DNA of 64,000 nucleotides from Octopus sinensis. Its lineage: Eukaryota. The translations under genes were made by a program, and so were the position numbers. The notes under the pieces were generated by a model. That model was not told the origin of the DNA and ran no database searches. It saw only the letters and a list, made by a program, of their open reading frames with translations. The DNA lies in assembly GCF_006345805.1 (NCBI RefSeq), contig NW_021833231.1, positions 16,407 to 80,406 on the forward strand, read 5' to 3'. Of this stretch, positions 51,833-55,282 are shown one piece after another (the first letter of the stretch is position 1; each line of letters begins with the position of its first letter).

Positions 51833-51866
51833 TATAACGTTTCGGAGAAGGTCCTTCTTCAGATAC
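51833..51866 (-). ncRNA. Minimal hammerhead ribozyme-like motif
   Basis: Minus strand tat-CTGAAGA-a-GGA-ccttc-TCC-GAAA-CG-TT-ata. Confidence 0.6.
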
Positions 51867-53881: not shown

Positions 53882-54962
53882 ATATACTTATATATATATT
53901 CATGCGAACGACTACCCAACCCAATGACAGCAGTAGCAACAGAAGCAGCCCTGTTCAAGAATCCGCTCATGTGTAAGAAACGTTGTATGTAAAGAACAAA
54001 TGATTCCTGTAATAAGACAGCGAGGGAAATAATGAGTTTACTACTTCCACAACAATGTAATCATGCAAGCAACAATTCTGTCTTCCGCAGACAGTGCTCG
54101 ATTTATGGTAAATTCTTTAATATGTTCAGTTTTGCTGTTCGCTCAGAAAGACAATATTTACCTCATTTGTATATTTATGTCTGTCCGTCTGATGTGTGTA
54201 TGTGTGTGTTTATGCGTGTGCGTACGTGCGTGTGTGTGTGTATGACGTGTTTGTATACGCGTACGTTAACAAATATAAGAAAAGGACGGTTTTAATGGAA
54301 AACAGTTGATGAATTTCTTTCAAGTAGCGACTCATCGATGTTTTTCAAATATATATATATTATATAATATATATATATAATATATGTATAATTATAACAA
54401 TAAGGGTTTTGCAACAAGTTGCTTGACCACATACCGAAAATTTTAGAAATAGCAGCCAAAGAACTACTATTTCCTTTTTCTACAAAAATATGTCTCCACA
54501 GACAACAATATTTGTAATTCATATATGGCAAAAAAAAAAAAAGAAGAAAAATAATGAAATCAAACAATCTGCGATTAATTATGGACGTACGTTTCTGGAT
54601 TAGAATCATAAGATTCATTTCCTTCATCGACATAATATTCCGATAAATAAATCTAGAAATGCTAGGAAAACTTGACCCTTATATTTCCGACCAAGCGTCA
54701 TTGGAACATATAAAAGCTAATCAGCATATCCACATTAATATAGACAAGTGAATTTCCCTCCCAAATTTTTTCTACCATGTGAGTCACAAAATAGTACTGC
54801 CGAAAAAAGATTCGTAGTTTTGTCGTAGGGGTATATATATATATATATATATCTATATATATATATATATATATAACAAAGGAAAGTTGTAAGGTACCGC
54901 ACGAGTGGAAATACATATGAAAGAAGGTTTGAAAATGCAATTTTAATGATGTTTATTCACTT

Positions 54963-55069
54963 AAAATTATAGAACGGTTCACGAATTTGCGTGTCATCCT
55001 TGCACAGGGGCTATGCTAATTTTCTCTGTATCGTTCTAATTTTAGAATATGTACCGCCGTAACTACTAC
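54963..55069 (-). pseudogene. U6: Full-length U6 snRNA-derived copy (diverged; probably a retrocopy)
   Basis: Minus strand GTAGTAGTTACGGCGGTACATATTCTAAAATTAGAACGATACAGAGAAAATTAGCATAGCCCCTGTGCAAGGATGACACGCAAATTCGTGAACCGTTCTATAATTTT: 107 nt, colinear with metazoan U6 including the ACAGAGA box and AGC triad; upstream is (TA)n rather than a recognisable promoter. Confidence 0.92.
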
Positions 55070-55282
55070 AAGGATGACTCTTTCATATATATATATATAT
55101 AAATATATATATATATAAAATACCACCTTTTATCAATTCAATAAGGAAAATTTAAATTATACCATTTAGAAAAATTACATATTACAGAAAGATTAAATAT
55201 AGGATAAAACATATAACGGTGATTAAGTAATGTGCAAAATAATAAATAAAACGTATATATTTGGTAGAATACCAAATATATG

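What the first reader, a model, noticed from the sequence alone, without database searches (positions are those of the whole stretch)
54876..55083. Candidate U6 snRNA-headed mobile element sitting between (TA)n tracts
Seen: on the minus strand a ~208-bp unit bounded by (TA)n on both sides consists of a short leader, a complete 107-nt U6-like sequence and ~85 nt of non-U6 tail (AAGTGAATAAACATCATTAAAATTGC...). There is no poly(A) tail, no TSD and no recognisable PSE upstream. The same architecture (short unit, AATAAA-containing tail, (TA)n on both sides) is shared by the Penelope-like fragments in this window. Known: U6 retrocopies are normally L1-made; snRNA-derived SINEs (SINEU, from U1/U2) are described in crocodilians. 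Inference: this may be one copy of a U6-derived SINE-like family or a U6/Penelope chimera mobilised into TA microsatellites.
Basis: partly seen in the sequence, partly recalled or inferred. Interest (0 to 1): 0.75.

Follow-up and report, generated by a model that had tools for sequence, protein, structure and literature searches.

The report
U6 fused at Penelope ribozyme cut
This is a decayed copy of the U6 splicing RNA joined to the end of a Penelope jumping gene at the bond where that element's tiny hammerhead ribozyme is predicted to cut; the same join recurs in eight Penelope families of this genome, which suggests these weak ribozymes likely do cut in germ-line cells and that the cut end was likely ligated to U6 before being copied into DNA.

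Summary
The unit is real but is not a SINE family. It is a promoterless full-length U6 copy (9 of 107 bases changed) fused to the last 87 bases of a Neptune-like Penelope element and set in (TA)n; the "leader" is a deleted inverted second arm. Only one other locus has this junction. In the parent family the bases before the junction form a minimal type I hammerhead (U3-A8 core), and U6 starts at its predicted cut. A genome survey found 17 U6-Penelope loci: 15, in 8 families with different ribozyme sequences, sit at the predicted cut, with a five-base U tail in 23 of 24 arms and no added bases; 2 do not. Best reading: ribozyme cleavage leaves a 5'-OH, RtcB ligates U6's cyclic-phosphate end to it, and the Penelope enzyme inserts the chimera. 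Cleavage is inferred (about 0.85); ligation (about 0.55) is favoured over a reverse-transcriptase jump (about 0.3), which likely made many U6-SINE fusions here. No cutting or ligation was tested; RNA reads were uninformative. My paper searches found no report. The scan noted the same idea earlier in two other genomes.

The parts
54832..54875 (.). (TA)n target tract at the 3' end of the long arm
54876..54910 (-). 35-base Penelope 'tail' extension (tail bases 53-87), present on the long arm only
   Evidence: parent arms end at base 87 (33 of 54) or base 52 (13 of 54); 30-40 base tail described in PMC8557442 and PMC11167929
54911..54962 (-). Penelope pseudo-LTR sequence from the first base after the predicted hammerhead cut; its first 7 bases are the 3' strand of helix I
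54962..54963 (-). U6-Penelope junction = predicted scissile bond (after GUC in the parent family); no shared and no added bases
   Evidence: descriptor places the cut at this bond in 27 of 43 parent loci, 1 other site in 17,200 bases
54963..55069 (-). Full-length U6 snRNA copy of the tandem-array variant, 9 of 107 bases changed, no promoter
55070..55078 (+). Inverted second arm, first part: U6 bases 69-77 (base 55069 is shared with base 68)
   Evidence: intact inverted arms at C3:123.69 Mb and eight other loci
55079..55092 (+). Inverted second arm, last part: tail bases 39-52 (short end), merging into (TA)n; about 68 bases including the junction are deleted between the two parts
55085..55117 (.). 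(TA)n target tract beyond the inverted arm

Best explanation
The unit is a U6 copy joined to a Penelope pseudo-LTR end at the predicted cut of the element's minimal hammerhead, likely made when the ribozyme cut the element's RNA, a ligase (likely RtcB) joined U6's 3' end to the cut end, and the Penelope enzyme likely copied the fused RNA into a (TA)n tract. Shown from sequence: the parts, the junction position, the two-armed inverted layout with the tail on one arm, recurrence in 8 families, and genes for RtcB and USB1. Inferred: cleavage in germ-line cells (about 0.85), a 5'-OH on the cut RNA and a 2',3'-cyclic phosphate on this animal's U6 (established chemistry, not measured here), ligation rather than a template jump (about 0.55 to 0.3), insertion by the element's own GIY-YIG/RT protein. 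The copy itself is likely inert.
For: 15 of 17 U6-Penelope loci found have U6 at the predicted cut: F1 2 loci, F2 6 (18, 21), F5 2 and F6 1 (34), F3 1 and F4 1 (44), F7 1 (66), F8 1 (68). The retained Penelope piece runs from 87 to about 200 bases, so the join follows the ribozyme, not a distance from the end. Helix I differs in sequence between families yet pairs across the cut, and the 3-8 core pair covaries (U-A in F1, F2, F4, F5, F6; A-U in F3, F8; C-G in F7). Descriptor cut exactly at the junction: F1 27 of 43, F2 12 of 28, F3 8 of 13, F4 9 of 14 parent loci, F5 8 of 19 arms; shuffled background 11 in 373,096 bases. For ligation: 23 of 24 arms have a five-base U tail and none has added bases; mature human U6 ends in five U and a cyclic phosphate, and RtcB joins it to 5'-OH RNA (PMC6789731, passages); in F1, F2 and F6 (9 loci) the base before the cut is C or A, so no microhomology guides a switch; both U6 gene variants occur at the same F2 base; intron-bearing RtcB and USB1-family genes are present; no Rfam RNA was found in 15 loci picked, which include those that start at the F1 or F2 cut without U6.
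Against: No cleavage or ligation was tested. Two U6-Penelope loci are off the cut: L190 (about 41 bases 3' of it) and L275 (about 19 bases 5' of it, with extra bases, other arm without U6). Most U6 copies outside the gene array are joined to SINE 5' ends or to varied points of other repeats with variable linkers (read by eye), so U6 capture without a ribozyme is common here. The F1 core is imperfect (U-U at the base of helix II), and ViennaRNA's best monomer fold for it keeps helix I but not the hammerhead core. F6 fails the strict descriptor (0 of 14; 25 of 28 arms with a looser helix I) and has C at position 13. In F3, F4, F5, F7 and F8 (6 loci) T bases beside the cut leave the join uncertain by 1-3 bases. 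13 of 15 loci were found with a pattern demanding five T. The 15 loci are not all independent: L103 and L104 share a rearranged 5' joint, and the window and C3 copies share a rare tail change (1 of 38 parents) and one U6 change. PMC11167929 found the ribozyme dispensable for insertion in vitro and no anole reads ending at the cut.
Confidence: 0.58

Rival explanations
1. The ribozyme cuts, but no ligase acts: the Penelope reverse transcriptase runs off the cut 5' end and jumps onto the 3' end of a U6 molecule.
For: It predicts the same junction position. U6 fusions to SINE and LINE pieces are the majority here, and template switching is the published account for U6 with L2, RTE and their SINEs (PMC4476161, passages). 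L275 looks like such a jump.
Against: The SINE-type joins show T-runs from 4 to 19 and differing linker bases (read by eye); the joins at the cut show neither (23 of 24 arms). No 5S, tRNA or 7SL was seen at the cut in the small F1/F2 sample.
Confidence: 0.3
2. No cleavage: the reverse transcriptase stalls at the folded hammerhead and switches template there.
For: These ribozymes are weak in vitro (PMC4209133); most parent copies pass through the motif intact (F1 50 of 54 arms, F2 37 of 37).
Against: An enzyme coming from the 3' side meets the outer end of helix I several bases before the scissile bond, yet the joins sit at the bond in families whose helix I runs from 2-3 to 7 pairs.
Confidence: 0.08
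3. The unit is a member of an amplified U6-headed SINE family.
For: The window and C3 copies share two changes, and L103/L104 share a rearranged joint, so one extra round of copying of a chimera is possible.
Against: Two loci only; they differ in U6 5' end, inversion point and which arm bears the tail; no internal promoter; eight different tails.
Confidence: 0.04

Closest known systems
U6/LINE-1 chimeric pseudogenes made by RtcB ligation (Moldovan et al. 2019, PMC6789731; passages read)
   Same: U6 ending in its U tail joined without added bases to a 5'-shortened retroelement RNA, then inserted by that element's enzyme.
   Different: Partner is a Penelope-like element; the join is at one fixed, ribozyme-defined bond instead of variable points made by an unknown nuclease; (TA)n target, inverted arm and tail instead of poly(A) and target duplication.
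U6 chimeras with L2, RTE, Mon-1 and AnolisSINE2 (Doucet et al. 2015, PMC4476161; passages read)
   Same: U6 captured by non-L1 retroelements, one event at a time.
   Different: 'Penelope' occurs 0 times in that paper's main text; explained there by template switching.
Minimal hammerheads of metazoan Penelope-like elements (Cervera and De la Pena 2014, PMC4209133; parts 1-2 of 4 read)
   Same: Type I motif in the pseudo-LTR, short palindromic helix III, U3-A8 core variant, short helix I in some families.
   Different: That paper states there is no in vivo evidence of cleavage; A3-U8 cores (F3, F8) were not in the parts read.
SINEU, snRNA-headed SINEs of crocodilians (Kojima 2015, PMC4494074; passages read)
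   Same: snRNA head on a retroelement-derived tail.
   Different: SINEU are amplified families whose tails lack a matching LINE 3' end; here parents outnumber chimeras by hundreds to one.

Membership tests
U6 snRNA retropseudogene | U6 sequence without upstream promoter, decayed | tested here: met
Penelope-like element, EN+ (Neptune-like) | Tail contiguous with a C-terminal GIY-YIG frame preceded by a CX2-5CxxC linker | tested here: met
   F1 in L245, with the linker cysteines read in the sister copy L248; Pfam GIY-YIG E 0.003, below the curated cut-off for this broken piece, above it for the F5 piece; linker definition PMC8557442. Shown in one contiguous F1 locus only.
Penelope-like element, EN+ (Neptune-like) | Inverted 5'-truncated arm, 30-40 base tail on one end, (TA)n target | tested here: met
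Penelope-like element, EN+ (Neptune-like) | Reverse transcriptase falls in the Neptune clade | not tested
   no F1 reverse transcriptase was fetched; Nematis shares the linker
Minimal type I hammerhead | Core letters with a 3-8 pair, helix I across the cut, palindromic helix III | tested here: met
   helix II base pair is U-U in F1; no Rfam hammerhead hit at gathering score in four parent loci
Minimal type I hammerhead | Self-cleavage | not testable with these tools
   inferred from junctions only
RtcB-ligated U6 chimera | Full U tail joined with no added bases | tested here: met
   23 of 24 arms, with the five-T search bias stated
RtcB-ligated U6 chimera | Chimeric RNA exists before reverse transcription and needs RtcB | not testable with these tools
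   RtcB gene present; the read tool drops human-like reads, which would include U6
SINE / SINEU | Many copies from a master, shared diagnostic changes | tested here: not met
   2 loci
SINE / SINEU | Own promoter | tested here: not met
   U6 promoter is upstream and absent
L1-made U6 retrocopy | poly(A) or L1 3' end with target duplication | tested here: not met

The most novel reading that the evidence does not exclude
Penelope minimal hammerheads, including U3-A8, A3-U8 and other off-consensus cores, cut in the germ line, and host RtcB ligates their 5'-OH ends to cyclic-phosphate RNAs; U6 fusions are a genome-wide fossil assay for which small ribozymes were active in vivo, and the first natural case where both ends of an RtcB substrate pair are chemically accounted for.
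Probability: 0.5. Interest if true: 0.82.

Novelty: new variant of a known kind. Interest (0 to 1): 0.7.

Why it matters
Whether Penelope hammerheads cut in cells is open: they are weak in vitro (PMC4209133), dispensable for insertion in vitro, and no reads ended at the cut in anole (PMC11167929). Fusions fixed at the scissile bond in eight families are indirect evidence that they do, and they name the families and core variants to assay. If the join is a ligation, it supports the proposed cut-and-ligate step of the Penelope cycle and supplies the defined 5'-OH source that the U6/L1 model lacks. The same search can be run on any genome with ribozyme-bearing retroelements.

Tried and rejected
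A first junction pattern was too loose (121 matches against 97 in the control) and was dropped. Tail as U6 gene flank: rejected. L004 and C13410 looked like the same junction but are U6 joined to tRNA-type SINEs. Fifteen of the fetched pattern hits matched U6 over 19 bases or fewer and were treated as chance, including the F2-like L255. RNA: no holder on record as RNA among indexed runs; raw reads of a related organism laid on F1 and F2 parent stretches showed no pile-up of ends at the cut, but they are fragmented, 85-99% alike, 6% of each run, and human-like reads are dropped, so this says nothing either way. A control for how often copies start at an ordinary base failed because a subfamily with one more T swamped it (617 matches); no claim is made that the cut is a general hot spot of 5' ends. 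The patterns miss that subfamily and any partner with C ten bases before the cut, which includes U6 itself. Cross-species presence of this insertion was not tested.

Full report
Observation. Rfam finds one RNA in the window, U6 at 54963-55069 on the minus strand, between (TA)n tracts ending at 54875 and starting at 55085. It differs from the tandem-array U6 gene at 9 of 107 bases. True genes lie in an array at C1:141.8-141.96 Mb with octamer and TATA upstream and a different 3' flank, and a second variant gene lies at C2:121.64 Mb. The genome is likely an octopus; that rests on repeats I recall, not on a call.

The tail. The 87 bases after U6 are the end of a high-copy repeat, here F1 (1676 first-look candidates, 40 scored). 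Parent arms end at base 87 or base 52 (33 and 13 of 54), often as inverted pairs in (TA)n: the tail and inverted-arm signature of Penelope-like elements (PMC8557442, passages; PMC11167929, parts 1-2 of 4). In L245 the F1 end is contiguous with a GIY-YIG frame, the sequence between being shared with other F1 copies; the CX4CxxC linker points to Neptune or Nematis. The window's 'leader' is the remnant of the inverted arm: U6 69-77 plus tail 39-52. C3:123.69 Mb holds the only other F1 chimera, with both arms intact.

The junction. In parents the bases before the tail read helix I strand, UUGACAA core, a hairpin, then GAAAC-CG-GUC, and the first tail bases are the other helix I strand. This is the type I minimal hammerhead with the U3-A8 variant described for Penelope elements (PMC4209133, parts 1-2 of 4). 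U6 begins at the scissile bond. A relaxed descriptor of my own, widened after I had seen six families, puts a cut at this bond in 27 of 43 parent loci and at 1 other place in 17,200 bases; shuffled loci give 11 in 373,096.

Recurrence. Exact patterns for the U6 3' end gave 221 matches with five or more T (all listed through 16, 61, 62) and 57 with four T. Thirty rows are true genes. I fetched 80 stretches, mostly rows that did not look SINE-headed; the rest were judged by eye from 20 bases. Fifteen fetched hits were chance matches. Seventeen loci join U6 to a Penelope-type end. Partners were picked by TA flanks and arms, and parents were looked up afterwards (for F7, L190 and L275 from loci already held). 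Fifteen loci in eight families sit at the predicted cut; L190 and L275 do not. Cores are U3-A8 (F1, F2, F4, F5, F6), A3-U8 (F3, F8) and C3-G8 (F7). GIY-YIG frames lie upstream in loci of F1-F6 and F8; none was sought for F7. Several non-SINE partners stayed unclassified (L092, L183, L185, L192, L253, L276). Diverged chimeras are missed by exact patterns, as the window copy was.

Independence. Eight families means at least eight events; F2 carries both U6 variants, so at least nine. L103 and L104 share a rearranged joint, and the window and C3 copies share tail A81C (1 of 38 parents) and U6 C66T, so each pair may stem from one source, although the window and C3 copies differ in U6 5' end, inversion point and which arm bears the tail.

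Mechanism. Hammerhead cleavage leaves a 5'-OH (established chemistry). Human U6 ends in five U and a cyclic phosphate, and RtcB joins it to 5'-OH but not 5'-triphosphate RNA (PMC6789731, passages). Here 23 of 24 arms keep a five-base U tail, counting substitutions inside it, and none has added bases. The search demanded five T for 13 loci, but longer runs were allowed and the four-T survey added only two second arms; three T or fewer were not surveyed. RtcB and USB1-family genes are present. Homodimers of four natural motifs gain 2.4-11.3 kcal/mol; in F2 the dimer keeps helix II and pairs the palindromic helix III, while F1, F4 and F8 dimers do not give the full hammerhead fold. The main rival is a template jump from the cut end, since U6 is also fused to SINE starts and LINE interiors with variable linkers. 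Following earlier scan notes on 5S and tRNA fusions to LINE tails (not checked by me), I looked for other partners at the F1 and F2 cuts: of 31 matches about 12 start at or next to the cut, joined to the inverted arm, to the element's own upstream pieces, to a Penelope reverse-transcriptase piece, to TA or to a reversed SINE, and none of the 15 scanned holds an Rfam RNA. The sample is small and its control failed.

Literature. Searches for Penelope, hammerhead, RtcB and U6, octopus U6 pseudogenes (0 papers), U6 chimeric retrogenes with Penelope, ribozyme cut sites with snRNA and U6, RtcB, ribozyme, retrotransposon showed no listing that reports this; most hits were seen as listings and abstract starts only. 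Penelope occurs 0 times in PMC6789731, PMC4476161 and PMC11838501; the 2026 preprint on retrozymes and Penelope has no RtcB, snRNA or octopus (term search only). Subscription journals and all supplements were not seen and could hold such cases. The scan's own notes report the same reading in two other genomes; I had written it down before and treat those notes as unverified.

Verdict. Real; a new variant of U6 chimeric pseudogene whose junction is set by a ribozyme; not a SINE. Interest 0.7.

Noticed in passing
G000 C1:141.83-141.96 Mb (L005-L030): Tandem array of about 29 U6 genes at 1.1-1.4 kb spacing with a divergent 5' stem-loop; a second variant gene lies alone at C2:121.64 Mb (L101). Both variants appear in chimeras.
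   Followed up: partly
listings; L004, L011, L029, L094, L095, L200, L201: Most non-gene U6 copies are fused to SINE 5' ends or to a ~50-base SINE/LINE tail with variable linker bases.
   Followed up: partly
L105, L109, L111: U6 joined inside what read as LINE coding 3' regions (RT-, CR1- and R4-like by recalled motifs).
   Followed up: no
L187, L193, L194 (C7:83.90 Mb, C18:12.72 and 12.80 Mb): Three U6 fusions at the same base of another repeat family whose other U6 joins vary; L193 and L194 look like a duplication. A ribozyme at that point was not looked for.
   Followed up: no
L047/L298 1500-1510; L296; L303: F1 tails starting exactly at the predicted cut joined to a Penelope reverse-transcriptase piece or to the element's own upstream sequence.
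   Followed up: partly
L305-L326: 10 of 22 F2 matches lack 12 bases spanning helix III and the cut, deleted between two copies of a 6-base repeat.
   Followed up: no
L103, L104 (C3:80.18 and 80.54 Mb): Two F2 chimeras share a rearranged U6 5' joint but carry the tail on opposite arms, suggesting re-transposition of a chimera.
   Followed up: partly
L102, L266, L278: Solo 5'-truncated U6 copies inside (TA)n with no partner.
   Followed up: no
L281 (C14:7.253 Mb): Three tandem units of a short U6 end plus SINE tail.
   Followed up: no
G000 C9077:57.6-58.9 kb and C2292:174-175 kb: Intron-less, broken RtcB-family matches beside the intron-bearing gene on C6; retrocopy or contaminant not decided.
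   Followed up: no
window 51836-51862, minus strand: Canonical minimal hammerhead (C3-G8) of another Penelope-type fragment.
   Followed up: no
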